Sequence record: AP012533
DNA: 62,274 bases
Origin: Stx2-converting phage Stx2a_F723
Reading direction: 5' to 3' (one strand)
The translations under genes and the position numbers were made by a program. Shown here in pieces: positions 3,926 through 62,127 of this stretch. The first letter of the stretch is position 1. Each line of letters begins with the position of its first letter. The notes under the pieces were generated by a model that had not been told where the DNA came from, ran no database searches, and saw only the letters and a program-made list of their open reading frames with translations.

Positions 3926-3948
3926 ATCACCAGTTAGTGGCTGGTGAT
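3926..3948. promoter_or_regulatory. Operator-like dyad upstream of antirepressor gene
   Basis: ATCACCAG-ttagtgg-CTGGTGAT perfect 8-bp inverted repeat 30 bp upstream of the antA-like start; arms resemble lambda operator half-sites (ATCACC). Confidence 0.35.
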
Positions 3949-4251
3949 CGGGTGTCAACTAGAGCCTTCAAAGATGCTCCGGGCATATTCCCCTTGCGGG
4001 TATTGTATTACGCCTCTCCACCCGACCTTTGTACGGATGTGACTATGCCAAATTGCAGGCATAAAAAAGCCGCAAAGCTATCGGGTGCGGATGACCGCTT
4101 TGAAGTTCTAGTGCGGTCAGTATGCGATAGCTCTGGCGGATTTGTCAAATCATGTAGGCCTTATCTTGCTGTAAGCCGCGCCATTCGGGCTTTTCCCCAG
4201 ATTTGGGGGAAACTATCTGCGAAGTATTCACCTTTAACGGCAAGTTGCAGG

Positions 4252-20496: not shown

Positions 20497-20574
20497 TTTA
20501 TCCGGGGCTATATTCCTCACACGCCAGCAAAATCTGGCGTCGGGATTGGCGTCCCGGATGAAAAAGGCGACAAC

Positions 20575-20596
20575 AGACGCGCCAGCGTCTTTTTTA
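20575..20596 (+). terminator. Rho-independent terminator
   Basis: AGACGC-GCCA-GCGTCT hairpin followed by TTTTTT. Confidence 0.5.
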
Positions 20597-20752
20597 TTGT
20601 CGTTTGCACAGTCACATCTCAATGGTGGGCTGTGTGGGGGCGGAGCAATCCGCGCCGGTTCCTTTTTCCCGGTTACGCCAACCCTGCACAGTTCACCACC
20701 AAGCGATTGGCGTCGCAGGTGGTGATGATTCACAAAGAAAAAGGATCATCTT

Positions 20753-24451: not shown

Positions 24452-24527
24452 GGCCCTTTAGCTCAGTGGTGAGAGCGAGCGACTCATAATCGCCAGGTCG
24501 CTGGTTCAAATCCAGCAAGGGCCACCA
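24452..24527 (+). tRNA. tRNA with CAU anticodon (Ile2/Met type)
   Basis: Cloverleaf with GGCCCTT/AAGGGCC acceptor stem, GCTC/GAGC D-stem, anticodon CAT at 24485-24487, encoded CCA. Confidence 0.85.
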
Positions 24528-24534
24528 TCACATA

Positions 24535-24611
24535 CCGCCATTAGCTCATCGGGATAGAGCGCCAGCCTTCGAAGCTGGCTGCGCGGGGTTCGAGTCCTCG
24601 ATGGCGGTCCA
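24535..24611 (+). tRNA. tRNA-Arg (anticodon UCG)
   Basis: Acceptor CCGCCAT/ATGGCGG, anticodon loop CTTCGAA (TCG at 24569-24571), encoded CCA. Confidence 0.8.
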
Positions 24612-24624
24612 TTATCTGCATTAT

Positions 24625-24701
24625 GCGTTGTTAGCTCAGCCGGACAGAGCAATTGCCTTCTGAGCAATCGGTCACTGGTTCGAATCCAGTACAACGCGCC
24701 A
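24625..24701 (+). tRNA. tRNA-Arg (anticodon UCU)
   Basis: Acceptor GCGTTGT/ACAACGC, anticodon loop CTTCTGA (TCT at 24659-24661), encoded CCA. Confidence 0.8.
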
Positions 24702-26032: not shown

Positions 26033-26280
26033 GGCATAACCTGATTCGTGGTATGTGGGTAACAAGTGTAATCTGTGTCACAATTCAGTCAGTTGACAGT
26101 TGCCTGTCAGACTGAGCATTTGTTAAAAAAATTTCGCATGGTGAATCCCCCTGTGTGGAGGGGCGACTGGTGAAAAATCCTTGCTTGTGATTCATTATCG
26201 ACACGGGTTCGGTGGTACCAGGCCGAACTCACCGGGAGGCACCCGGCACCATGCAGTATACAGAGATTAGGCATATACCA

Positions 26281-26307
26281 AGGCCTCTCATAGCAGGGGC
26301 CTTTTTA
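26281..26307 (+). terminator. Rho-independent terminator downstream of stx2AB
   Basis: AGGCCTC-TCATAGCA-GGGGCCT hairpin followed by TTTTT; a second oppositely oriented hairpin follows at about 26312-26336. Confidence 0.6.
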
Positions 26308-26518
26308 CATGTAAAAAAGCCCGAGTGGGTTCGGGCAATTGCATGAGATACTCGTTTTAATAATCGAAATCATTTTAACCAGGATTCATAAGGCTGCGCA
26401 ACTGCGCGACCTTTTTCGAATTGCGGGCTGTAGTCTCCCTTCTGCCATTGTCCTGTAACTTCCGGACTTCAGCCCGCTCCTTATTTTACTCACAATATTA
26501 TCCCGGCCGGGAGGATTC

Positions 26519-37465: not shown

Positions 37466-38356
37466 TCAGGCTGCCAGATCATCGTTTCCGATGGAAGCAT
37501 AATAAGCTTTTTCTGCTTCTGCCGGAGGAGTATGGCCCAGCCTTCCCAGCAATCGTCGATTGTTATACCAGTCCACCCACGTTAGTGTGGCCAGTTCCAC
37601 TTCTGCACGGTTTTTCCAGCTCTTACGGTGTATTACCTCCGCTTTGTAAAGACCATTGATGCTCTCAGCCATCGCGTTGTCATACGAGTCGCCTGTACTC
37701 CCTGTTGATGCCAGTAATCCGGCTTCTTTTAGTCGCTCCGTATAGGCCAGTGACACATACTGAGAGCCTTTATCGCTGTGATGGATGGTGCCAGACGGAC
37801 GACGGGCCCACAACGCCTGCTCCAGCGCATCCAGCACGAATGTCGTTTCCATAGACGATGAGACCCGCCACCCCACGATGTATCCGGCAAACACATCAAT
37901 GATAAACGCCACATAGACGAAGCCCTGCCATGTGCTGACGTAAGTAAAATCAGCCACCCACAGCTGGTCAGGTCGTTCTGCCACGAACTGACGGTTTACG
38001 CGGTCGCCTGCGGCAACGGCTTTCCGGCTGATGGTCGTACGGACCTTTTTACCCCGGAGAACACCGGCAAGTCCCATAACCGCCATGAGACGTGCCACTG
38101 TACATCTGGCCACCCTGATTCCTTCCCGTAACAACTGACGCCAGACTTTACGCACACCGTACACCTGATGATTTTCATCGTATACGCGCTGTATCTCTCT
38201 CTTCAGCCAGTCGTCGTGCTGCGCACGGGCACTGCGTTTATCCGGATGATGTCGCTGTTGCTGACAATGGTAATACGTTGACGGGGCAATATGCAGTTCG
38301 CTGCATACCGGTCCGACCCCGTACTGCTCACGCAGCTTATCCAGCAGTGGCATCAT
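37466..38356 (-). CDS. IS629 transposase OrfB (DDE integrase domain)
   Basis: 296-aa ORF matching IS3-family OrfB as recalled. Confidence 0.9.
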
Positions 38357-38679
38357 TTTTTCCAGAGGCGGTCGAACTCCGCCTTCGCAAAATAAGCGGA
38401 AGCCTGGCGAAGGATATCGTTACTGCGGCGCAGTTCACGATTTTCACGTTCCAGCTCTTTCAGACGCTGACGTTCAGCGCTGGTGAGCCCACCATCACCG
38501 CCCCCGGTATCCCGCTCATGCTGGCGAACCCAGACACGCAGAGTCTCCGGCGTACAGCCAATCTTTGGGGCAATGGAACAAATTGCCGCCCACTGTGAGT
38601 CATATTCATCCTGACTTTCCAGAACCATACGAATCGCCCGCTGACGGACTTCGGGGGAAAAACGAGTATTTTTAGTCAT
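38353..38679 (-). CDS. IS629 transposase OrfA (HTH)
   Basis: 108-aa [54 protein letters not shown]... matching IS629 OrfA; overlaps orfB as expected for a -1 frameshift arrangement. Confidence 0.9.
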
Positions 38680-49340: not shown

Positions 49341-50075
49341 ATGAAGAGTATAGCAACACTGGTTGTGTGTGCAATCTCCGGGATTGCCTGTGTAAATTTA
49401 TCTGCACATGCAGCAGAAGGAAACCATACAATTTCTCTGGGGTATGCGCACTTTCAGTTTCCGGGACTGAAGGATTTTGTAAAGGATGCGACTGCTCATA
49501 ACAGGGAGACTTTCAGTCATTTCGTCAACAGAAACTACTTTTCTTCATTGGGCGAATATACAGATGGTCGGGTCAGTGGATATGAAGGCAAGGATAAAAA
49601 TCCACAGGGCATTAATATCAGGTATCGCTACGAGATAACGGATGATTTTGGCGTTATCACCTCTTTTACATGGACGCGTTCTCTCACTAACTCACAGACA
49701 TTTATTGATGTGCAGTCAGCCGATCATACCAGGAAGATTAAGAATCCGGCAGCTTCTGCCAGAACGGATATCAGGGCGAATTACTGGAGTCTGTTAGCGG
49801 GGCCTTCATGGCGGGTTAATCAGTACATGAGCTTATATGCGATGGCAGGGATGGGCGTTGCTAAAGTTAGCGCTGACCTGAAAATTAAGGACAATATTAA
49901 CAGTAGTGGCGGATTTTCTGAAAGCAACAGCACGAAAAAAAACTCCCTTGCGTGGGCTGCAGGTGCACAGTTTAACCTGAATGAGAGTGTTACACTGGAT
50001 GTGGCTTACGAAGGTTCCGGCTCTGGCGACTGGCGCACGAGTGGAATTACTGCTGGCATTGGCCTGAAATTCTAA
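49341..50075 (+). CDS. lom: Outer-membrane protein Lom (Ail/Lom/OmpX family)
   Basis: 244-aa ORF with signal peptide and C-terminal beta-barrel ending ...GIGLKF; AT-rich promoter region upstream. Confidence 0.85.
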   Translation: MKSIATLVVCAISGIACVNLSAHAAEGNHTISLGYAHFQFPGLKDFVKDATAHNRETFSHFVNRNYFSSLGEYTDGRVSGYEGKDKNPQGINIRYRYEITDDFGVITSFTWTRSLTNSQTFIDVQSADHTRKIKNPAASARTDIRANYWSLLAGPSWRVNQYMSLYAMAGMGVAKVSADLKIKDNINSSGGFSESNSTKKNSLAWAAGAQFNLNESVTLDVAYEGSGSGDWRTSGITAGIGLKF

Positions 50076-50098: not shown

Positions 50099-50122
50099 AC
50101 CCGCTGTGATGGCGGGTTTTTT
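50099..50122 (+). terminator. Rho-independent terminator downstream of lom
   Basis: ACCCGC-loop-GCGGGT hairpin followed by TTTTTT. Confidence 0.65.
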
Positions 50123-50305
50123 ATTGCCCGTACAGGGCAAAAACCGTAAATTATGCGTGGGTGCCTTTCGGCTGATGGCTGGAGGGTGAACCTGAAGGCC
50201 TGATGTGGAAAGGCCCCGAGTCAACTTAACGTTAACCCGAGGCCCTAACACTTCGTACCTTGACAAGTAGAAGGTTAGCGCCTCTCCACTCAGGAGGCAA
50301 GCGCT

Positions 50306-50446
50306 ATGTCGCAAAAATCGCTTATCACCGTCACAATTTGTATGACGGTTATCTTCACCATCTGGATGTTACACGGCTCGTTGTGTGAGTTCCGGCTGAA
50401 TTTGTGGGGAGCGGAGTTTGCGGCGTTCTTACAGTGTAAGCAGTAG
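50306..50446 (+). CDS. Hok/Gef-family type I toxin (46 aa), unannotated in ORF track
   Basis: Hand-translated MSQKSLITVTICMTVIFTIWMLHGSLCEFRLNLWGAEFAAFLQCKQ; AGGAGG SD 8 nt upstream; single TM helix then SLCE...AAFL.CK pattern as in HokA/Gef. Confidence 0.6.
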   Translation: MSQKSLITVTICMTVIFTIWMLHGSLCEFRLNLWGAEFAAFLQCKQ

Positions 50447-50526
50447 GAAAACCGCGGCGGGGACGAAAGTCCCCGTCAACTGGTTGCTGAGGTTCAGCCG
50501 ATATGGCACCCGTTTCAGGTGAGAGA

Positions 50527-50904
50527 ATGAACGATAAAATTCTCCGGTATATGCAGCGTGTGGTGAGAAATTCCCGCAACCCTGAATTTATGAATGAAGT
50601 TAAAGACGCCTGCCTTAAAAAGCAGGCGTTTTGTTTTGAGGCACCTGATGGCTTTCTGGTGCTGCGTTCTGTGCTCAGTGCTGATGGTATCCCTTATGTT
50701 CTGGTGTTGCTGGGCGTGTGTACGGGGAGTAACAGTGTTGAGCGTTATCTGCCGGAGGTGAAGACATTAACCCGTCTGGCTGGCGGACGTTGGGCTGAAT
50801 TTCATACGGCAAGGCGGGGATTTATCCGGCTGGGAAAACGTCTGGGCTTTGAGCGAATGCCGGATGATGAGGATGGCTTCATGGTGTTCAGGATAGCGGT
50901 CTGA
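50527..50904 (+). CDS. Hypothetical protein
   Basis: ATG at 50527 (MNDKILRYMQRVVRNSRNPEF...) with AGGTGAG SD; track ORF starts at 50503. Confidence 0.5.
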   Translation: MNDKILRYMQRVVRNSRNPEFMNEVKDACLKKQAFCFEAPDGFLVLRSVLSADGIPYVLVLLGVCTGSNSVERYLPEVKTLTRLAGGRWAEFHTARRGFIRLGKRLGFERMPDDEDGFMVFRIAV

Positions 50905-53751: not shown

Positions 53752-56700
53752 ATGGCCTATTCAGAGGAACAGCGTCCTGAGGCGCAACTCGGTAACCAGA
53801 ATCGTAACAGCCTGAACATTCAGCAACCCGGCGAAACTGACAGCTATGAAGCATTTTTCTCTGATCCGAATCGCTGGAAGGATAACAGTACGTCGTTCAG
53901 CCTGGGCGATGTATTGCCAACAATGGGTAAAGGTTTCGCCCAGTCCGTCCGGGGAACAGGGGAAATGGCCCGTGGACTCGGTGATGCGATGATTCAGAGC
54001 CCGGTAAAAACAGGGGCGCGTATTTTAAATGAGTTCAGCCGTATGGGGCTGCCGGGTGTCGCAACTGTGCAGGATATTTTTGCCGGTGGCAGCAGGGGGG
54101 CTGATGAGGTCATCGATACCCTGCCTGATGGCAAAAACGCGGTTACTGATACTGTCGGTAAAGGTCTGAAGGCAACCGGTAAGGCTGTCAGTGATGGTGC
54201 TAAAGCCACTGATGAATGGCTGACCGGTAAGATGTCGCCGGGTGCAGTTCGTGCGCTGAATACGCCGATGACCGAAGGCTATGATGATTCTGCGGTCTGG
54301 GTGGCGAAGGGTGTAAACCTGATTGGTGCGCTTGTACCTGATATGGTTGCTGGCGGTGTGGCTAAAAAGGTGGGTGATGTCACACTGCGAAAAATGCTGA
54401 CCGCCGGGCTGGAGAAAAAATACATCGCGGCAGGGATGCAGCCGGAAAGAGCCACGGCACTGGCAGCAGAAGCTGTCGATAAAAAAATGCCGGATTTATT
54501 CCAGGCGGGCCTGATCACCCATTCCACAGCCAGTGCACAGGGGCAGAGTGCAATGGCGGCAGCAGATGCTGTTCTTAATGCGGATTACTCTGAGCTGGCG
54601 CAGTCACCGAAATTTCAGCAGACGTTTTTGTCCATTGACGCCGACCCGCAGCACGCACAGCTTACTGATCGCCAGAAAATGGATCTGGCAAAAGAGCGTG
54701 TTGCCGATGAGGTGCGCGCGCAGCTGGCAACCGATCCTGAATTGCTGGCTGTGAATGCCATGGCGGCAAAACTGGGTGACGCACAACTGTTTAATCTGGT
54801 GACACGAGGCACAGCGAAGACCGTTAAAAGCGGCATTGTCAGAAATGCCACGGAACAGGGGGCGATTAATGCGGCGCAGGGCGGCTATTCACGCTATCAG
54901 GAAAACACGGCATTGCGTGAGACCGCCGGAATGGATGTGTCACCGTGGGAGGGCGTGGCTGACGCAACGATCGAAGGTGCAGCCTTTGGTGCTGCGATGG
55001 GGGCTCCATCCGGTGCGGTTGCCGGATATCGTGGCAGACGTCAGGCCGCAGAAGAAGCAGCCATGCGTGATGCTGAAACCGTGCAGCAGGACGACGCAGC
55101 CCCGCAACCAGAATCTGTTGATCCGGTGGCGCAGCATCGTGAATCCATGCAGGGGATGAATCGCGAGCAGCTTCTGGAGCAGTATGCTGATGCGGATATG
55201 GCAACAGAGGGTGACGCATCCGCAGCTCATCGCCGGGAAGCTGCCAGCCAGCTGTTGAATGAACTGGATGAACAGGCGAAGCGACAGGCGGTGATGGATG
55301 AGCTGAAGGCGAAGCCGCGTCCTGAACTGCTTGAGGAATACCGCAGACTCAGCCTGAAGGAAGGGCGTACTGAGACTGAAGAGCAGCAGTTACAGGCTAT
55401 CCGTGATGTGCTTCGCCCTCAGCAGGAGGCCAGACCGGAGGCACAGCCAGAAAATACAGATGATGGCGACGGGAGTATTTATCCGACGGTGCGGTTCCGC
55501 GATCCGGATGAAGTGCGTATTGAAATTAACGGGAGTGGCGCGTCCAGACCAGCGGAACGCATTGAAAAGGTGCGTCCGGACAACCGTTATTTCACGGATG
55601 AGAAAAGCGCTATGGGTAGCGATGTTTTTCGCAATGCCAGCGCCACCGGCCTGAAACCGTCCGTAGTGAAGAAAGGTGAGAATCAGTATGCCGTTGAAAT
55701 GGATAATCCTGCGTTCTCTGAAGATGTGGCAACGGAAACCATTAACACCCTGGCTGACGGAGAGCGTATTACTGATGCTGATCCGATGGAGCAGCCAGCG
55801 TTCATGCGTGACCCGCGATTCCGGGGTTTTACGGGAGATGATACAGAAGTGCAGGCCCGCCTTGCCCGTGGCAACGTGCCGACGGCGGAAGAGCTGGTGC
55901 GTTCACAGATGGCTGAAGGTGATGCCGGTCCGACAGCTCAGGAGTTAACTGAGCGTCCGCGTCTGCCCGCCCCCGGCGATATTCATCCCGGACAGGGATA
56001 TCCGTTACCGGGAGAAGTGGCGCGTACGCCGGATGAAAATCAGGCCGGACGTGGTGGTCGTTTTACCATAACCGGTGAGGTTAAGGGCCAGAGTTTCCAG
56101 AAAGGACGTGCTCCGGCACCGGAAAACGCCGCTGGTCGCCAGGGGGAAACACTCGAGGGTGAAACGGTTCGTCGGGGTCTGCCGTCACCGGATGCGCAGA
56201 ACGCGACAGCACCGGTACGTGAAGGGCTACCGGCTCCTGACATTGCGCGTAATGTTCGTATGCCTCAGCCTGAATCACTTCCCCGCACTGTACGGGACTC
56301 ACTGCCTGAGCTCGCACAGCAGGCAGAAGTACGTCGGCAGGCCAGAGAAAATCGTGACATCCTGCAGCCTGAGACAATCGCACCTGAATCTGAAACAACA
56401 GTCTCTACTGACAGGGAAGCTACCGTGCGCGGAGGTGAAGTCAGGGGCAAAAAAATTGAAGACTTTGGTGAAGAAATTAAGGGCGCGGCAAAACACCGTT
56501 ATGCACAGCTTGCCGAAACACTGGGTAAAACGCTGGAAGACAGGGATTATGTCACGCAACCGCTGAGCAAACTGTTCCCGAAACCGGACTACGCAAAACT
56601 GGCGAACGAAGGTGCCGATGCTGATACCCTGGCAATGATAGCGCTGTATCGTAGCGATATTCCGGCGAAGACGAAACTCAATGCAGTGAAGTGGGTGGAG

Positions 56701-59700
56701 AGTGTAAAGAGTATCCGCACAAGTGTGGCGGGAATGCTGGAAGGAAAAGTGACTGCCGGACGGCTTGCTGAGTGGATGGAAGGCAGAATGCCCGCCCGTT
56801 ACGCGGACACATGGCAACTGTTACGCACGCTGCCACCCTCGCAGATAGACAAGGCTTCTGCTTATCGGGTGGTATCCGGTGTGTATCAGGCGGCAGGAGG
56901 GAAACGTTACGATCCGCCACGGAAACTTTATTCACTGCGCAATAAGGACAATAAGGGGAGCAATCTCTTTTTCTCGGAAAGCAGGGATGAATTACTGACA
57001 AAGGCAAAAGCCTGGTTTGCAGAGCAGGAGGAAAAATCACAGGCGAAAGGTGATGAAAAAACAGCACTGTCACCGGATGACAAAATCAGCTTTGACGTAT
57101 ACCGGAATACCCGCAGTGGCGATATTTTTATTGCTTACGGCAAAAACAAAATGCGGGTGAGAGGTGGCTTTAAGTCAGCCAGTGATGCGCGTAAGTACAT
57201 TGATTCACATCGTGATGAGCTTGTTCGTCATGTGAAGGAGATGCGTGAGATTTCGCGTGAGGAGCAGCGTAACGCCACCAACCGCGATCGTACCGGGCCA
57301 GAACGCCGCAAGGGTGATGTCTCACCGAAGCAGTTCAGCGATGCGTTTGGTTTTCGTGGTGTGCAGTTTGGTAACTACGTGGAAGGTCCGCGTCGTCAGG
57401 CTGATTTGAACCGGGCTTATGACTCGCTGCATGACCTTGCGGAAGTACTGAATGTACCGACAAAAGCGCTTTCCCTGAACGGTCGTCTTGGCCTGGCATT
57501 TGGTGCCCGTGGTAAGGGTAAGGCGGCAGCACACTATGAGCCGGGTGAGGTGGCAATCAACCTGACAAAAGGTAACGGACCGGGTGCGCTGGCGCACGAA
57601 TGGTTCCATTCACTGGATAATTATTTTGGTCGTTATGATGTTTCCACTGACGGGAAGATTACGTCAGGTGGTGACTTTATGACGGAAGCCAGGCGTGTCA
57701 AGCGCGTATTTAAAGACGGCCGGTTTGTTGACGCTGAATATCCGGTGCGTCAGGAGGTTTACGACGCGTTTAAAGGTGTCATTGAGGCCATTAAAAACAG
57801 TGACATGCCGCGTCGTTCAGCGCTTCTCGATGAGGTGCGCTCAAAACCGTACTGGTCAACGGATGTTGAAATGGCGGCACGTGCCTTTGAACGTTATGTT
57901 CAGGATAAAGCGCGTAAAGCTGGCGTGGAGAATGATTATCTGGTCAATATCCGTAAGGCACCTGAGCACAACACAGATAACACCTACGCTTATCCGACGA
58001 ATGCGGAACTGGATGGCGGTATTCGTGAGGCATTCGATCACCTGTTCCGCACCCTGAAAACCCGTGAGACGGACAAGGGCGTTGCGTTTTATTCCCGTAA
58101 GGGCGTTACCCGCACACCTGAAGGTAATCTCATTTCGGATGTTAACCGTAGTGCGGAAGCCAAAGGCAGCCCGGTCCCGCAGGTTGAAGCGGTTGCCCGT
58201 GGCGTGATGAGCGGCATTAAGGACAGTGACCTGAAGGTCCGTGTGGTGAAGTCACAGAAAGAGGCTGAAGCGCTGGCGGGTGAATTGTTCGATGGTTACG
58301 GCAGGGTGCACGCATTCTATCGTCCGGATAAACGAGAAATTGTCCTGGTGGCGGATAACATCCCTGACGGGCGGACCGTTCGCGAGAAGCTGCGTCACGA
58401 GATCATTCACCATGCCATGGAGCATGTTGTCACACCAGCGGAATATCAGACGATTATCAAAACCGTGCTGAAAACCCGCGACAGTGATAACGTCACCATC
58501 CGTGAAGCCTGGCGTAAGGTTGATGCTTCCTATGGTAAGGAATCACCGGAAGTACAGGCGGGTGAATTTCTGGCACATATGGCGGAGAAACAGCCGAATA
58601 AATTCGTGGCGGCATGGGAGCGTGTTGTTGCCCTGGTCAAAGGGGTACTGCGTCGTACGGGGTTACTGAAGCCGACGGAACTGAACGATATCAGACTTGT
58701 TCGCGAGACCATCCGTACGTTAGGCCAGCGTGTGCGGGAAGGTTACACGCCGCGTGAGGATGGCGCGGGCGCATCGTCTCAGTACTCCCGTAGTGGTAAA
58801 CGTGATCCGTTCAAAGTGCCGGAAGGTGAGGGCGAGCGTTATCGTGATGACCTTGCCAGAATGATGAAATCTCTGCGCACCACAGATTTAACGGTAAACA
58901 TCGGGCGTACGCCGCCGGTATTGCGTCACCTTGGTGCACCGGATTTGCCGCTGGTTATTTCCCGCGATACTGTGCGGAAGGCCACCAATGGTGTGAAACA
59001 TGTGGTGCCGATGGATGTTATCGAGAGACTACCGGAACTGATGCACGATCCGGATGCAATTTACCGCTCAGCGACAGAAAGAAATGCGGTTGTGATGCTG
59101 CTTGATGCCGTGGATAAAAATGGTGATCCGGTGGTGTCAGCGGTACACATGAAGGCTGTCCGGTCGCGTCTGGAAATCAACAAGGTAGCTTCTGTTTACG
59201 GTACAGAAAATGGAAAAAAACTGAAGAGTATGGAAATGACCGGGTTAACGTTGTACCGGAGAGAAAAATTAAGCCGCGATAACCTTCTGCACAGAGGGCT
59301 CCAATTGCCCAAAGGGGAACATTCTTATCGCGGCTCTGCGGATAAAATACTCTATCCTGAAGATATTCGCAAGGGGCCGTATTACTCCCGTACCAGCAGT
59401 CTGACACCGGAAGAGACAATTGCATCGCGTTTTGTGCGCCAGATGCAGGATAAATTCCAGGTGCTGAAAGCTGTTCAGGAGAATATCCGTAAAACTGGCG
59501 GCAAAGTGGACGACAGTAACAACGCTTATATGGCGGAAGAACTCTTCCACGGGAAGGCGGAAAACGACCTGAACGTGATGAAGGAGCGCTACGTTCAGCC
59601 ACTGGCTAAATTACTGGCGGACTACAAAATTGCGCAGGCCGATCTGGATGAGTACCTCTACGCCCGTCACGCGCCGGAACGTAACGCGCATATCGCGAAA

Positions 59701-62127
59701 ATCAACCCGAAAATGCCGGACGGCGGTTCGGGGATGACCAACGCGGAAGCGGCGGAAATCATGCAGCGTGTACGTAACAGTGGCAAACAGGCACAGTATG
59801 ACCGTCTGGCAGGGATTATTGACGATATGCTGGCCCGTCGCCGTGAGCTTATCCGTGAGGCCGGACTTGAAGAGAACGGTGTGGTGGATGCCTGGCAGAA
59901 CGCCTACCGTTACTACGTTCCCCTGAAAGGTCAGGATGTTGACGGTGTGGTGTCACTGCCCCGTACAGGTAAGGGCTTCACCATCGGCGGACGTGAAAGC
60001 AGGCAAGCCATGGGGCGTGCATCCCGGGCACAGTCTCCGTCCACTCAGGCGATACAGGACCTGAGCGAATCGCTGATCCGCCATCGCAAAAACGAAGTGG
60101 GTAACGCCTTCCTGAAACTGGTGCAGGATAATCCCGACAAGGATTACTGGCAGGTATTCACCGATGACAGACCGGATACCATGCGGACGATTGCAGAGCG
60201 CAAGGACCAGGAAACTGGTGAAACCATTCGCGAAGTTGTCGAACGCCCTGTACCGATGGCAATGATGGCAGACCGGTACTTCACCACCAAAAAGAACGGC
60301 AAAACGTACTACATCAAACTCCATGATCCGCGCCTGATGCGTGCGATGAAGAATATGGGACCGGAAACCAGCAATGCCTTTGTTCGTACGCTGGGGAAAG
60401 TTAACCGCTTCCTGGCAACGGTGAACACGTCGTATAACCCGGAATTCCTGGTCAGTAACTTCATCCGTGACGTGCAGACGGCGGTGATGAACCTGAAGGC
60501 GGAGCAGGGAAGGAGCGACGGTAAACTGAAAGGGCTGGATAACTTATCCGCCCTGGCTGTGGTGAAAGACAGCCGTTCTGCCATGTCAGCCGTATACGCC
60601 AGTCTGCGTGGTAAAACCCTCACGGGAAAAGGTGCACAGTGGCAGAAGGTGTGGAAAGAGTTTGTTGAGGACGGAGGTAAAACCGGCTGGTTTAACATGG
60701 GTGACCTTGAAGGCCAGCAGAAGGAAATGGATCGCCTTGTATCGCTGGCGAAGGGAGGATGGAAAGGCCAGAGTATCGGTGCATGGAATTCGTTCCTTAA
60801 CCTTGTCGAGGATGCCAACGGGGCGGTTGAAAACGCTCTGCGTCTTTCTGCCTATAAACACGCCCGTGATGCCGGTTTGTCACGCCAGCAGGCGGCGTCT
60901 CTTGCCAAAAACATGACGGTGAACTTTAACCGTCGTGGTGAGCAGGGAGCGCTGATGAACTCGCTGTACATGTTCGCCAACGCCAGCATTCAGGGGACCG
61001 CAAACCTGGTGAGAACGCTCGGACATCTTAATGGCGACGGGCCGTTACTGGAGCGCCTTCGCTGGAAGAATCTCAATGTACCGCAGAAAATCGCGCTTGC
61101 AGCTGTGGGAGCGGGTTATCTGCTTGGCTCGCTTAACCGCAGTGTTGCGGGGGAGGATGATGACGGGGTTAACTGGTATGACAAGGTGCCGTCTCATGTG
61201 AAAGAGCGTAACCTCGTCATTATGAAATCGGTGTTCGGGGGCAAGGCCGGAGAGTACTGGAGTATTCCTCTGCCTTACGGGTACAACGTTTTCTTCCTGC
61301 TTGGTCACACAGCCGAAGGGGTGGCAGCGGGCGACCTGACCGCTTCACGTGCTGCCGGTAATGTTGTTGGTGGTGTGCTTGGGGCATTCAGTCCTGTGGG
61401 CAGTGAAACGTCGGAAACACTGTCCGGGGCATTGCTGAAAAATGCAGCACCGACAATTCTGCGTCCGTTTGCGAATCTTGCCATGAACGAAAACTTCATG
61501 GGGGCGCAGATTTACCAGGAGAACATGCCGTTTGGTACACCAAAACCTGACAGCCAGCTGGGAAGACGTTCAACGCCAGAAGCGTACAAGGCGTTTGCAT
61601 CCTGGCTGAATGCGTTCTCTGGTGGCAGCCAGTACCGTTCCGGTGCGGTGGATGTCACGCCGGAATCACTGAAATACTGGATTGACTATATCTCCGGAGG
61701 GACAGGGCGCTTCATTTCCAAAACCACGGATGCGGCGGTGAAATCGCTGAACGGTATTGATATACCGGAGCAGCAGGTGCCCTTCCTGGGGAAAATTTCA
61801 GGTGAGGTGATGCCGTATGCTGACCAGCAGAAGATGTACGACCGGATGACAGAGGTTGCGCAGTATCACGCAGAGCTGAAGAGTCTGACCGGTGCAGAAA
61901 GAACGGCGTTCATTGACGAGAACAACGGAAAATTGTCGATGAACGGGCTTATGCAGGATACCCGGAAGAGACTGAAGGATTTGCGTAAACAGCGTGATGC
62001 CATTTACGCCGACAGTACTCTCAGTCTGGCGCAACAGTCGGCGATGGTGAAATCGGTTGAGCGGGATATGAAAATTGCCGTGGATCGGTTTAACCGCGAG
62101 TACAACAAAAAAGTGGGAGTGGAGTAA
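53752..62127 (+). CDS. Giant multidomain protein (2791 aa) with two HExxH motifs; possible injected virion protein
   Basis: Uninterrupted 8.4-kb ORF; ATG at 53752 with GGAG SD (track start 53725 is TTG); HEWFH at 57595-57609 and HEIIH at 58396-58410. Confidence 0.8.
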   Translation: MAYSEEQRPEAQLGNQNRNSLNIQQPGETDSYEAFFSDPNRWKDNSTSFSLGDVLPTMGKGFAQSVRGTGEMARGLGDAMIQSPVKTGARILNEFSRMGLPGVATVQDIFAGGSRGADEVIDTLPDGKNAVTDTVGKGLKATGKAVSDGAKATDEWLTGKMSPGAVRALNTPMTEGYDDSAVWVAKGVNLIGALVPDMVAGGVAKKVGDVTLRKMLTAGLEKKYIAAGMQPERATALAAEAVDKKMPDLFQAGLITHSTASAQGQSAMAAADAVLNADYSELAQSPKFQQTFLSIDADPQHAQLTDRQKMDLAKERVADEVRAQLATDPELLAVNAMAAKLGDAQLFNLVTRGTAKTVKSGIVRNATEQGAINAAQGGYSRYQENTALRETAGMDVSPWEGVADATIEGAAFGAAMGAPSGAVAGYRGRRQAAEEAAMRDAETVQQDDAAPQPESVDPVAQHRESMQGMNREQLLEQYADADMATEGDASAAHRREAASQLLNELDEQAKRQAVMDELKAKPRPELLEEYRRLSLKEGRTETEEQQLQAIRDVLRPQQEARPEAQPENTDDGDGSIYPTVRFRDPDEVRIEINGSGASRPAERIEKVRPDNRYFTDEKSAMGSDVFRNASATGLKPSVVKKGENQYAVEMDNPAFSEDVATETINTLADGERITDADPMEQPAFMRDPRFRGFTGDDTEVQARLARGNVPTAEELVRSQMAEGDAGPTAQELTERPRLPAPGDIHPGQGYPLPGEVARTPDENQAGRGGRFTITGEVKGQSFQKGRAPAPENAAGRQGETLEGETVRRGLPSPDAQNATAPVREGLPAPDIARNVRMPQPESLPRTVRDSLPELAQQAEVRRQARENRDILQPETIAPESETTVSTDREATVRGGEVRGKKIEDFGEEIKGAAKHRYAQLAETLGKTLEDRDYVTQPLSKLFPKPDYAKLANEGADADTLAMIALYRSDIPAKTKLNAVKWVESVKSIRTSVAGMLEGKVTAGRLAEWMEGRMPARYADTWQLLRTLPPSQIDKASAYRVVSGVYQAAGGKRYDPPRKLYSLRNKDNKGSNLFFSESRDELLTKAKAWFAEQEEKSQAKGDEKTALSPDDKISFDVYRNTRSGDIFIAYGKNKMRVRGGFKSASDARKYIDSHRDELVRHVKEMREISREEQRNATNRDRTGPERRKGDVSPKQFSDAFGFRGVQFGNYVEGPRRQADLNRAYDSLHDLAEVLNVPTKALSLNGRLGLAFGARGKGKAAAHYEPGEVAINLTKGNGPGALAHEWFHSLDNYFGRYDVSTDGKITSGGDFMTEARRVKRVFKDGRFVDAEYPVRQEVYDAFKGVIEAIKNSDMPRRSALLDEVRSKPYWSTDVEMAARAFERYVQDKARKAGVENDYLVNIRKAPEHNTDNTYAYPTNAELDGGIREAFDHLFRTLKTRETDKGVAFYSRKGVTRTPEGNLISDVNRSAEAKGSPVPQVEAVARGVMSGIKDSDLKVRVVKSQKEAEALAGELFDGYGRVHAFYRPDKREIVLVADNIPDGRTVREKLRHEIIHHAMEHVVTPAEYQTIIKTVLKTRDSDNVTIREAWRKVDASYGKESPEVQAGEFLAHMAEKQPNKFVAAWERVVALVKGVLRRTGLLKPTELNDIRLVRETIRTLGQRVREGYTPREDGAGASSQYSRSGKRDPFKVPEGEGERYRDDLARMMKSLRTTDLTVNIGRTPPVLRHLGAPDLPLVISRDTVRKATNGVKHVVPMDVIERLPELMHDPDAIYRSATERNAVVMLLDAVDKNGDPVVSAVHMKAVRSRLEINKVASVYGTENGKKLKSMEMTGLTLYRREKLSRDNLLHRGLQLPKGEHSYRGSADKILYPEDIRKGPYYSRTSSLTPEETIASRFVRQMQDKFQVLKAVQENIRKTGGKVDDSNNAYMAEELFHGKAENDLNVMKERYVQPLAKLLADYKIAQADLDEYLYARHAPERNAHIAKINPKMPDGGSGMTNAEAAEIMQRVRNSGKQAQYDRLAGIIDDMLARRRELIREAGLEENGVVDAWQNAYRYYVPLKGQDVDGVVSLPRTGKGFTIGGRESRQAMGRASRAQSPSTQAIQDLSESLIRHRKNEVGNAFLKLVQDNPDKDYWQVFTDDRPDTMRTIAERKDQETGETIREVVERPVPMAMMADRYFTTKKNGKTYYIKLHDPRLMRAMKNMGPETSNAFVRTLGKVNRFLATVNTSYNPEFLVSNFIRDVQTAVMNLKAEQGRSDGKLKGLDNLSALAVVKDSRSAMSAVYASLRGKTLTGKGAQWQKVWKEFVEDGGKTGWFNMGDLEGQQKEMDRLVSLAKGGWKGQSIGAWNSFLNLVEDANGAVENALRLSAYKHARDAGLSRQQAASLAKNMTVNFNRRGEQGALMNSLYMFANASIQGTANLVRTLGHLNGDGPLLERLRWKNLNVPQKIALAAVGAGYLLGSLNRSVAGEDDDGVNWYDKVPSHVKERNLVIMKSVFGGKAGEYWSIPLPYGYNVFFLLGHTAEGVAAGDLTASRAAGNVVGGVLGAFSPVGSETSETLSGALLKNAAPTILRPFANLAMNENFMGAQIYQENMPFGTPKPDSQLGRRSTPEAYKAFASWLNAFSGGSQYRSGAVDVTPESLKYWIDYISGGTGRFISKTTDAAVKSLNGIDIPEQQVPFLGKISGEVMPYADQQKMYDRMTEVAQYHAELKSLTGAERTAFIDENNGKLSMNGLMQDTRKRLKDLRKQRDAIYADSTLSLAQQSAMVKSVERDMKIAVDRFNREYNKKVGVE

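What the first reader, a model, noticed from the sequence alone, without database searches (positions are those of the whole stretch)
50125..50502. Unannotated hok/gef-family type I toxin gene between lom and the downstream virion genes
A 46-codon ORF (50306-50446) with a near-consensus SD (AGGAGG, 8 nt upstream) encodes MSQKSLITVTICMTVIFTIWMLHGSLCEFRLNLWGAEFAAFLQCKQ. It has one transmembrane helix followed by the SLCE...E.AAFL.CK pattern I recognise from Hok/Gef toxins, closest to HokA as recalled. It falls below the 60-aa ORF-track cutoff. It sits in a 430-bp spacer after the lom terminator, with a GGGGAC-GAAA-GTCCCC hairpin just 3' (50456-50473). Hok/Sok-type loci cause post-segregational killing and can abort phage infection, so here it could stabilise the prophage or exclude other phages. 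I could not identify a mok-like overlapping frame or a sok antisense promoter by eye.
Basis: partly seen in the sequence, partly recalled or inferred. Interest (0 to 1): 0.65.

Follow-up and report, generated by a model that had tools for sequence, protein, structure and literature searches.

The report
Known Hok toxin cassette after lom
The small gene after lom in this Shiga-toxin prophage is a real Hok-family membrane toxin with its antisense-RNA antidote, but it is already annotated in public genomes, catalogued and reported toxic in a recent survey, so it is an ordinary, known kind of element.

Summary
ORF 50306-50446 (46 aa, AGGAGG 8 nt upstream) exists and passes Pfam HOK_GEF (33.2 bits, cutoff 22).

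Around it lies most of a hok/sok-type cassette (about 50124-50511):
- a weak promoter and a leader homologous to the hokC/B/E/W/R1 leaders;
- an antisense promoter whose hexamers are identical to those of the annotated sokW, driving a predicted Sok RNA of about 59 nt;
- an SD-sequestering hairpin and a covarying 3' hairpin;
- 15 bp of 5'-3' (tac/fbi) pairing that closes the mRNA.

No conserved mok frame is present, and the Stx-phage copy lacks the terminator found in sister copies.

It is not new. RefSeq annotates the identical locus as "Hok/Gef family protein" (WP_000078907.1), PHROGs as "MokW-like host killing". A bioRxiv survey (10.1101/2025.08.07.668861) cloned this exact CDS (72_1589) and does not list it among its three non-toxic constructs.

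It is distinct from the published hokW-sokW of Sp5/933W (33% identity, about 13 kb away in 933W), which this window lacks. 933W/Sp5 carry both loci, and the hokW paper does not mention the second. HokA is the closest named Hok (46% identity) but not an orthologue.

Its biological role (prophage addiction, exclusion of other phages or help with lysis) is untested. Verdict: interpretation supported, already known, low interest.

The parts
49341..50075 (+). lom (Ail/Lom outer-membrane protein); upstream neighbour, for context only
   Evidence: Pfam Ail_Lom E = 6.2e-32; annotated as Lom
50099..50124 (+). lom intrinsic terminator (stem 50099-50117 plus T-run), directly abutting the hok promoter
   Evidence: terminator scan
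50124..50152 (+). predicted hok promoter: -35 TTGCCC (50124-50129), 17-nt spacer, -10 TAAATT (50147-50152)
   Evidence: read from the sequence; aligns with the -10 regions of hokC (TATAAT), hokB and hokE; matches 8 of 12 consensus positions, below the scan threshold; conserved in sister cassettes; not shown experimentally
50159..50511 (+). hok mRNA core, from the predicted 5' end (GGGUGCC) to the end of the fbi; the true 3' end is unknown
   Evidence: full-length Rfam RF01794 match to 50159-50317, E = 7e-7 but below gathering; leader alignment with hokW/C/B/E/R1; the homology block shared with unrelated contexts is 50139-50511; fold z = -5.7
50159..50175 (+). tac-like 5' element; pairs with the fbi in the full-length RNA and with 50205-50217 (ucb-like) once the 3' end is removed
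50207..50265 (-). predicted Sok-like antisense antitoxin RNA, about 59 nt: 5' single-stranded tail of about 20 nt, 16-bp stem-loop, then CCUUUCC
   Evidence: ends placed by homology to the annotated sokW/sokC/sokB/sokE; fold -36 kcal/mol, z = -5.9; hairpin -26.5 kcal/mol on the antisense strand against -11.9 on the sense strand, an asymmetry kept in every variant together with compensatory stem changes; transcription not shown
50272..50300 (-). predicted sok promoter: -35 TTGCCT (complement of 50295-50300), 17 nt, -10 TAACCT (complement of 50272-50277)
   Evidence: hexamers identical to those upstream of the annotated sokW and same layout as sokC/B/E; -10 invariant in all 8 cassettes compared
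50260..50388 (+). remnant of a mok-like frame (TTG start, 42 codons, same frame as mokW through AGG-TTA-GC); probably not functional
   Evidence: no ATG where hokW/hokC/R1 have the mok ATG; the nearest GAGG is 17-18 nt upstream; the start is lost in 933W, O111, C7, AR86 and E32511 copies
50279..50304 (+). hairpin that sequesters the hok Shine-Dalgarno sequence (AGGAGG, 50292-50297) against CCUCU (50283-50287)
   Evidence: MFE and partition function, P(unpaired) 0.18; stem conserved and loop variable across variants
50306..50446 (+). hok-family toxin gene, 46 aa
   Evidence: Pfam HOK_GEF 33.2 bits against cutoff 22; phrog_251 E = 2.8e-24; WP_000078907.1 'Hok/Gef family protein'; exact CDS = construct 72_1589 in bioRxiv 10.1101/2025.08.07.668861
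50450..50485 (+). stable 3' stem-loop (core 50456-50477); probable stop for 3' exonucleolytic trimming, not a terminator because no U-tract follows
   Evidence: two pairs each show 5 compensatory changes among 12 sequences; the role is inferred from the R1 hok paradigm
50494..50511 (+). fbi-like element (TCAGCCGA ... GGCACCC), complementary to the 5' end; overlaps the first ATG (50503) of the next ORF
   Evidence: pairs 50159-50165 with 50505-50511 and 50168-50175 with 50494-50501 in every transcript model that contains it; kept 353-357 nt from the 5' end in all variants; 7-bp closure kept in the consensus fold
50606..50637 (+). nearest terminator-like hairpin plus T-run, inside the downstream phrog_610 ORF; possible 3' end of the hok transcript in the lysogen
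   Evidence: speculative; sister P2-type cassettes instead have their own terminator about 22 nt after the fbi

Best explanation
This is an intact hok/sok-type type I toxin-antitoxin cassette of the HokA-like subfamily (cluster 72 of Escalera-Maurer et al.), carried as a moron between lom and the downstream genes of a 933W-like Stx prophage. Shown here by sequence analysis: a 46-aa Hok-family ORF; a leader homologous to canonical hok leaders; an antisense sok-type promoter and a Sok-like hairpin RNA; a local hairpin that hides the hok SD; and long-range 5'-3' (tac/fbi) pairing that closes the mRNA. Inferred from the R1 hok/sok paradigm (Gerdes laboratory, named knowledge): the full-length mRNA is stable and not translated. 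Slow 3' trimming back to the stable hairpin at 50456-50477 removes the fbi. The 5' end then re-pairs with 50205-50217, and the RNA becomes both translatable and open to Sok. While the short-lived Sok is being made, it pairs with 50207-50265 and the duplex is destroyed. When Sok synthesis stops, through prophage loss, transcription shut-off or induction, Hok is made, inserts in the inner membrane and kills. This copy differs from the R1 model in three ways: it has no conserved mok, hok has its own strong SD, and it lacks a dedicated terminator while lying in the same orientation as the Q-antiterminated late operon. Late read-through transcripts would therefore also carry it. The most likely biological pay-off is the one measured for the sister locus hokW-sokW, earlier growth arrest and more phage release on induction. 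Addiction or exclusion remain possible.
For: Toxin gene: Pfam above its cutoff; phrog_251; only hok-like ORF in the window; 46-codon frame kept in all variants and 5 of 5 synonymous differences from 933W. All seven residues reported as more than 80% conserved in Hok (M1, C16, T18, L30, C31, E32, E41) are present as M1, C12, T14, L26, C27, E28, E37. The exact CDS was cloned for the toxicity assay and is not among the three constructs reported non-toxic. RNA elements: Rfam hok-leader model matched full length at E = 7e-7; leader alignment to hokW/C/B/E/R1. The sok promoter hexamers are identical to sokW's and laid out like sokC/B/E. The Sok hairpin is about twice as stable on the antisense strand in every variant. 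The fold has z = -5.7 with 5'-3' closure in both MFE and centroid. The consensus fold has 15 pairs with compensatory changes. The tac/fbi to tac/ucb switch appears when the 3' end is trimmed. Cassette nature: the same block, 50139-50511, recurs next to ogr in P2-like prophages at different insertion sites, on a plasmid and beside a type-B L31 gene. Role: hokW-sokW results in Sp5 (PMC8621323).
Against: Nothing here shows transcription of either strand, the RNA ends, 3' processing or Sok-dependent repression. The Rfam match is below gathering (37.9 against 59 bits). The generic 5'-3' duplex energy is only moderately unusual: 4 SD below shuffles and 4th of 655 genomic windows. The 5' partner never varies, so the tac/fbi helix has no two-sided covariation. 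With no conserved mok, it is unclear how Sok, which binds 27 nt or more upstream of the SD, would block translation. No terminator follows the fbi in this copy. Chromosomal hokA/B/C loci were reported unable to mediate post-segregational killing (cited). The toxicity result is read by exclusion from the main text of a preprint; I could not see Fig. S4.
Confidence: 0.85

Rival explanations
1. The toxin gene is intact but its regulation has decayed. Like the K-12 chromosomal hok loci, this copy no longer works as an addiction or abortive-infection module and is carried along without any benefit to the phage.
For: No conserved mok frame. The terminator present in P2-type copies is missing here. 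The Rfam and NCBIfam scores are below their curated cutoffs. Chromosomal hokA/B/C were reported not to mediate killing after rifampicin. This prophage also carries an IS1203 insertion in a virion gene, so it may itself be decaying.
Against: The promoter, tac, Sok hairpin, sok -10, SD hairpin, 3' hairpin and fbi are all conserved, some with compensatory changes, across cassettes whose CDS differs by up to a third. The locus is kept in 185 of 197 matching phage records at full length. All five differences from 933W in the CDS are synonymous.
Confidence: 0.15
2. It acts mainly as a late-gene moron. During induction, Q-antiterminated transcripts from pR' read through the lom terminator and deliver hok as part of the late mRNA, so Hok works as a lysis or membrane-depolarising accessory. 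Sok then serves only to silence leaky expression in the lysogen.
For: The cassette has the same orientation as lom and the downstream genes and sits 6 nt after the lom terminator. It lost its own terminator and has a strong SD of its own. HokW in the related Sp5 is produced on induction and roughly doubles phage release.
Against: The tac/fbi closure and the SD hairpin are still predicted within a read-through fragment, so read-through alone would not make it translatable. The same cassette sits at prophage ends next to ogr in P2-like phages, outside any late operon. There are no expression data.
Confidence: 0.25
3. It is a chance small ORF in an intergenic spacer, with no gene there.
For: ORFs of 40-50 codons are common in the six-frame list.
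Against: Pfam E = 4e-8, above the cutoff; PHROG E = 2.8e-24; the frame is conserved in divergent copies; the exact peptide occurs on at least 1000 public contigs.
Confidence: 0.01

Closest known systems
Hok cluster 72 (sequences 72_1589 and 72_1621) in Escalera-Maurer et al., bioRxiv 10.1101/2025.08.07.668861
   Same: 72_1589 is the identical CDS and peptide. 72_1621 is the P2-prophage variant found here next to ogr. Both were cloned under an arabinose promoter, and neither is among the three homologs reported non-toxic.
   Different: Nothing differs at the CDS level. The survey deliberately did not analyse Sok, mok or the mRNA structure and does not discuss the position after lom.
hokW-sokW of Sp5 / 933W (Takada et al. 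2021, PMC8621323)
   Same: Same phage family, same type I TA family, and identical sok promoter hexamers (TTGCCT / TAACCT) with a homologous leader.
   Different: It is a different locus. HokW is 51 aa and 33% identical. It has an in-frame mokW with an ATG. It lies about 13 kb away on the opposite strand in 933W and is absent from this window. 933W and Sp5 carry both loci; the paper does not mention the second.
hokA of E. coli (chromosomal)
   Same: Closest named Hok: 46% identity, shared W in the TM helix, SLCE, AAFL and a hard-coded second Cys (xCK). It is also the best NCBIfam hit.
   Different: The match is well below the HokA equivalog cutoff (38.4 against 89 bits). The peptide is 46 aa rather than 50 aa and sits in a different genomic context. 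K-12 hokA is disrupted upstream by IS150.
hok/sok (parB) of plasmid R1
   Same: The overall plan matches: a toxin of about 50 aa, an antisense RNA made from a promoter inside the leader, an SD hidden in structure, 5'-3' tac/fbi closure and a 3' stem-loop.
   Different: The peptide is 28% identical. There is no conserved mok and hok has its own strong SD. No terminator follows the fbi in this copy. The cassette is on a prophage rather than a plasmid.

Membership tests
Hok/Gef toxin family (Pfam PF01848) | The peptide scores above the curated Pfam gathering threshold | tested here: met
   33.2 bits against a cutoff of 22, E = 4e-8, covering profile positions 6-42 of 42
Hok/Gef toxin family (Pfam PF01848) | About 50 aa with one N-terminal TM helix and the conserved residues M1, C16, T18, L30, C31, E32, E41 (logo numbering of bioRxiv 10.1101/2025.08.07.668861) | tested here: met
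   46 aa; M1, C12, T14, L26, C27, E28 and E37 align to those positions; the second Cys (C44) is hard-coded, as in HokA
Hok/Gef toxin family (Pfam PF01848) | Toxic to E. coli when overexpressed | not testable with these tools
   Literature only: the exact CDS is construct LRP157 / 72_1589, and the main text names only 19_179, 60_1482 and 69_1540 as non-toxic. This is read by exclusion; the figure was not seen.
hok/sok type I TA locus (R1 paradigm) | A short antisense RNA (Sok) made from a promoter inside the hok leader, overlapping the leader upstream of hok | tested here: met
   A promoter with sokW's hexamers sits in the homologous place. The predicted 59-nt RNA has a terminator-like hairpin that is favoured on the antisense strand in all variants. 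This rests on sequence and structure; transcription was not tested.
hok/sok type I TA locus (R1 paradigm) | Long-range pairing of the mRNA 5' end (tac) with a 3' element (fbi) | tested here: met
   15 bp, 50159-50175 with 50494-50511, in the MFE, the centroid and all longer transcript models. It is kept in all variants at 353-357 nt. The consensus closure shows only G-C to G-U changes and one break. There is no two-sided covariation.
hok/sok type I TA locus (R1 paradigm) | A mok reading frame that overlaps hok and couples its translation | tested here: not met
   No start codon where hokW/hokC/R1 have the mok ATG. The TTG 50260 frame lacks a properly spaced SD and is lost in most sister copies.
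hok/sok type I TA locus (R1 paradigm) | An intrinsic terminator just after the fbi that defines the full-length mRNA | tested here: not met
   None lies between 50511 and 50606. P2-type copies have one about 22 nt after the fbi.
Rfam RF01794 (sok / hok leader) | Score at or above the family's gathering threshold | tested here: not met
   37.9 bits against 59, although the match is full length (model 1-157) with E = 7e-7. It is not reported in the gathering-threshold scan.
HokA equivalog (NCBIfam NF007290) | Score at or above the equivalog cutoff | tested here: not met
   38.4 bits against 89; 46% identity to K-12 HokA
hokW-sokW of 933W/Sp5 | Same locus as the one published | tested here: not met
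   The published primers are absent from the window at up to 3 mismatches. The locus occupies a different position and strand in 933W. The peptide is 33% identical.

The most novel reading that the evidence does not exclude
The hok cassette after lom is a functional second type I TA of 933W-like Stx phages, and the only one in phages such as this. It works without mok. Because it is embedded in the late operon without a terminator, it is delivered by Q read-through on induction. It would then act redundantly with hokW-sokW in Sp5/933W, which could explain why deleting hokW-sokW only halved phage release, and it would influence the timing of lysis and hence Stx release.
Probability: 0.2. Interest if true: 0.35.

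Novelty: already known. Interest (0 to 1): 0.12.

Why it matters
It matters little as a discovery. The gene is named in RefSeq, UniRef and PHROGs, and the exact CDS has been tested in a published survey. Three points have modest practical value. First, the classic 933W and VT2-Sakai records still lack the feature. Second, Sp5 and 933W carry two hok loci, and the only functional study (hokW-sokW) did not take the second into account, so its partial phenotypes may reflect redundancy. Third, phages like this one, which have only the lom-proximal copy, would be the clean background in which to test what a prophage hok does for Stx-phage induction, lysis timing and toxin release. The mok-less layout with its own strong SD is a small mechanistic variation on the R1 paradigm.

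Tried and rejected
1. I looked for the published hokW-sokW in the window using primer sequences from PMC8621323. It is absent at up to 3 mismatches, and the HMM scan found no other Hok-like ORF. The locus is therefore not hokW.
A degenerate DNA pattern for CEFRLNLWGAEFAAF in the GTDB species representatives gave one hit, an 857-bp Xanthomonas pisi contig, which was no use for comparison.
3. The sigma-70 scan found no promoter on either strand. Both promoters are weak matches (8 of 12 and 7 of 12 consensus positions) and could only be placed by homology.
4. For a mok frame, I rejected an in-frame extension (stop at 50261-50263) and the homologous ATG position. The TTG 50260 frame is not conserved.
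5. A generic duplex-energy baseline for tac/fbi was only moderately discriminating, so I relied on positional conservation and on the fold results instead.
6. Literature searches for a description of the lom-proximal locus in Stx phages found none beyond the survey tables. TableS1 of the survey was truncated in storage, so I could not check whether cluster 72 is listed in T1TAdb or mapped to prophages.
7. I did not run structure prediction or the large protein database searches, because the family assignment was already unambiguous.

Full report
**Observation.** The sequence is as described. ORF 50306-50446 (+) encodes MSQKSLITVTICMTVIFTIWMLHGSLCEFRLNLWGAEFAAFLQCKQ, with AGGAGG at 50292-50297, 8 nt before the ATG. 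It lies in the 427-bp gap between lom (49341-50075; Pfam Ail_Lom) and the next ORF (50503-50904). The lom terminator is at 50099-50117. The GGGGAC-GAAA-GTCCCC hairpin core is at 50459-50474.

**Family assignment.** The peptide passes Pfam HOK_GEF (33.2 bits, cutoff 22, E = 4e-8). It matches phrog_251 'MokW-like host killing' at E = 2.8e-24. In NCBIfam the best hit is the HokA equivalog model, but far below its cutoff (38.4 against 89 bits). Identity is 46% to K-12 HokA, 33% to HokW, 36% to HokE and 26-28% to HokB, HokC and Hok of R1. The seven residues reported as more than 80% conserved across 1264 Hok peptides are all present. An HMM built from named Hoks and the sister variants found no other Hok-like ORF among 1445 stop-to-stop segments of the window.

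**What the window is.** It is a 933W/PA28-like Stx-converting prophage (Sepvirinae, Traversvirus). The 481-bp region is 100% identical in phages PA28 and P27 and in O157:H7 strains EC4115, TW14359 and TR01. It is 96.5% identical in 933W and VT2-Sakai/Sp5.

**Is it unannotated?** Only in some records. 933W AF125520 has nothing between lom and L0129. RefSeq/PGAP calls it 'Hok/Gef family protein', WP_000078907.1. The P27 RefSeq record calls it 'MokW-like host killing', and other records use 'small toxic polypeptide' or 'prophage host toxic membrane protein'. The exact peptide is on at least 1000 public contigs under those names.

**It is not the published hokW-sokW.** Takada et al. 2021 (PMC8621323) characterised hokW-sokW of Sp5. 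Their primers define a 51-aa HokW (MKQQKAM...DYESEK). That locus lies at 58.4-58.7 kb of 933W on the other strand, with annotated mokW and sokW. It is about 13 kb from the lom-proximal locus at 45.4-45.9 kb. The window lacks it: here the prophage ends right after the 8.4-kb LPD38 gene, next to yfdC. So 933W and Sp5 carry two hok loci and this phage carries one. The paper does not mention the second locus.

**Prior experimental work on this exact CDS.** Escalera-Maurer et al. (bioRxiv 10.1101/2025.08.07.668861) surveyed Hok diversity and reported enrichment in prophages. Their Table S2 lists this exact nucleotide CDS and peptide as construct LRP157, sequence 72_1589, from a high-abundance cluster. 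The P2-prophage variant is listed as 72_1621. The main text says 42 of 45 tested homologs were toxic and names only 19_179, 60_1482 and 69_1540 as non-toxic. I could not see Fig. S4 itself. The survey did not analyse Sok, mok or mRNA structure.

**Anatomy of the cassette.** Relatives at 77-83% identity all align to window 50139-50511 and to nothing beyond it. They sit in unrelated contexts: next to ogr at the ends of P2-like prophages inserted near tRNA genes, serS, ihfA and other sites; on a plasmid; and beside a type-B L31 gene in O157. The unit is therefore a discrete cassette whose limits are those of a hok mRNA. Its parts are:

- **Promoter and 5' end.** The -35 TTGCCC (50124-50129), a 17-nt spacer and the -10 TAAATT (50147-50152) align with the hokC, hokB and hokE promoters. 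The GGGUGCC 5' end at 50159 aligns with the GGGUGC(U/C) 5' ends of hokW, hokC, hokB and hokE. Rfam RF01794 is in effect the sense-strand hok leader ending at the hok AUG. It matches 50159-50317 over its full length at E = 7e-7, but below gathering (37.9 against 59 bits).
- **Sok.** On the minus strand, TTGCCT (complement of 50295-50300), 17 nt and TAACCT (complement of 50272-50277) are the same hexamers and spacing as upstream of the annotated sokW. The layout is the same as for sokC, sokB and sokE. Those RNAs start 7 nt after the -10, which puts the start here at 50265/50264. The predicted RNA of about 59 nt has a single-stranded 5' tail of about 20 nt, a 16-bp stem and then CCUUUCC (-36 kcal/mol, z = -5.9). 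The hairpin is far more stable on the antisense strand than on the sense strand (-26.5 against -11.9 kcal/mol), because three antisense G-U pairs become A-C mismatches on the sense strand. The asymmetry holds in every variant, and the two stem versions differ by compensatory changes. The antisense -10 is invariant in all copies compared.
- **SD hairpin.** The hok SD pairs with CCUCU at 50283-50287, with P(unpaired) = 0.18. The stem is conserved and the loop varies.
- **3' stem-loop.** The stem-loop at 50456-50477 has two pairs with five compensatory changes each among 12 sequences. No U-tract follows, so it is not a terminator. By analogy with R1 it is the likely stop for 3' trimming.
- **tac/fbi.** 50159-50165 pairs with 50505-50511, and 50168-50175 with 50494-50501. 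This pairing closes the molecule in the MFE and the centroid (z = -5.7), and also in longer and read-through transcript models. The pairing site lies 353-357 nt from the 5' end in all variants. The 7-bp closure survives in the consensus fold, which has 15 pairs with compensatory changes overall. Against shuffles and other genomic windows, the duplex energy alone is only moderately unusual. When the RNA is trimmed to 50478, the 5' end re-pairs with 50205-50217 and the AUG opens, with P(unpaired) rising from 0.21 to 0.49. This is the hok-type refolding switch, here as a model only.

**Departures from the paradigm.**

- **No conserved mok.** Where hokW, hokC and R1 have the mok ATG, this leader has none. 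The TTG 50260-50388 frame is in the homologous reading frame, but the nearest GAGG is 17-18 nt upstream, and the start is lost in 933W and most sister copies.
- **No dedicated terminator.** P2-type copies have a canonical terminator about 22 nt after the fbi. In the Stx-phage copy the homology ends at the fbi, which overlaps the first ATG of the next ORF. The nearest terminator-like site is 50606-50629 plus a T-run, inside that ORF.
- **Orientation.** The cassette points the same way as the late operon, so Q-modified polymerase should read through it. That step is an inference.

**Coding constraint.** All variants keep 46 codons. The 933W copy differs at 5 CDS positions, all synonymous. More distant copies change many TM residues conservatively while keeping C12, W20, H23, the CE(F/I)R motif and AAFLQCK.

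**Function.** The molecular identity is well supported. The biological role is not tested for this locus. The nearest evidence is hokW-sokW. In that system SokW disappears and HokW appears on RecA-dependent induction, growth arrest comes about 40 min earlier, and phage release is about two-fold higher than in the deletion mutant. Addiction and abortive infection, the classical roles, remain possible.

**Verdict.** The finding is an already known and already annotated member of a classical family, so I score interest low. The useful residue is the map of its RNA elements, the point that Sp5 and 933W have two hok loci, and the fact that this phage is a natural single-hok background.

Noticed in passing
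window 37466-38679 (-), Rfam ALIL pseudoknot at 38282-38398: A copy of the IS3-family element IS1203/IS629 splits a gene lying between the portal gene and the N4-gp56-type major capsid gene. The two halves are annotated as pseudogenes in the identical prophage of strain TR01, so this prophage may be unable to make virions.
   Followed up: partly
window 53752-62127 (+) and the window's right end: The prophage ends directly after an 8.4-kb gene for an LPD38-domain protein, with yfdC just beyond the window. The 933W segment L0135-hokW/sokW-L0141 is missing, so this phage has only the lom-proximal hok locus.
   Followed up: partly
L003 (933W 45.4-45.9 kb) and L004 (933W 58.4-58.7 kb): 933W and Sp5 carry two hok-family loci. 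The functional study of hokW-sokW (PMC8621323) does not mention the lom-proximal one, which could be redundant with it and could confound the partial phenotypes reported.
   Followed up: partly
L011, L012, L015-L020 (about 1180-1630 in each): The same 46-aa hok cassette sits just after ogr at the ends of P2-like prophages inserted at several chromosomal sites, and on one plasmid. There it has its own intrinsic terminator about 22 nt after the fbi. Some of these copies also keep a long open frame in the mok register.
   Followed up: partly
window 50606-50637 (both strands): A bidirectional terminator-like hairpin with T-runs lies inside the coding sequence of the phrog_610 ORF (50503/50527-50904).
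   Followed up: no
window 50503 versus 50527: Annotations disagree on the start of the downstream ORF: PGAP uses the ATG at 50503 (inside the fbi element), while the P27 record uses the ATG at 50527 with an RBS. The PHROG profile aligns from residue 9, which favours 50527.
   Followed up: no
window 26107-26366, 24452-24698, 20508-20703, 10319-10377, 3938-4027: Rfam hits above gathering: STnc100 (+) abutting AsxR (-), three tRNA genes, c4-a1b1/isrK/C4 antisense RNA, the lambda cIII thermoregulator and sRNA-Xcc1.
   Followed up: no
L010 (Xanthomonas pisi DSM 18956 contig NZ_JPLE01000227.1, 857 bp): This was the only hit among the GTDB species-representative genomes for the exact CEFRLNLWGAEFAAF coding pattern. 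It is a tiny contig in a Xanthomonas assembly and most likely contamination with E. coli or phage DNA.
   Followed up: no
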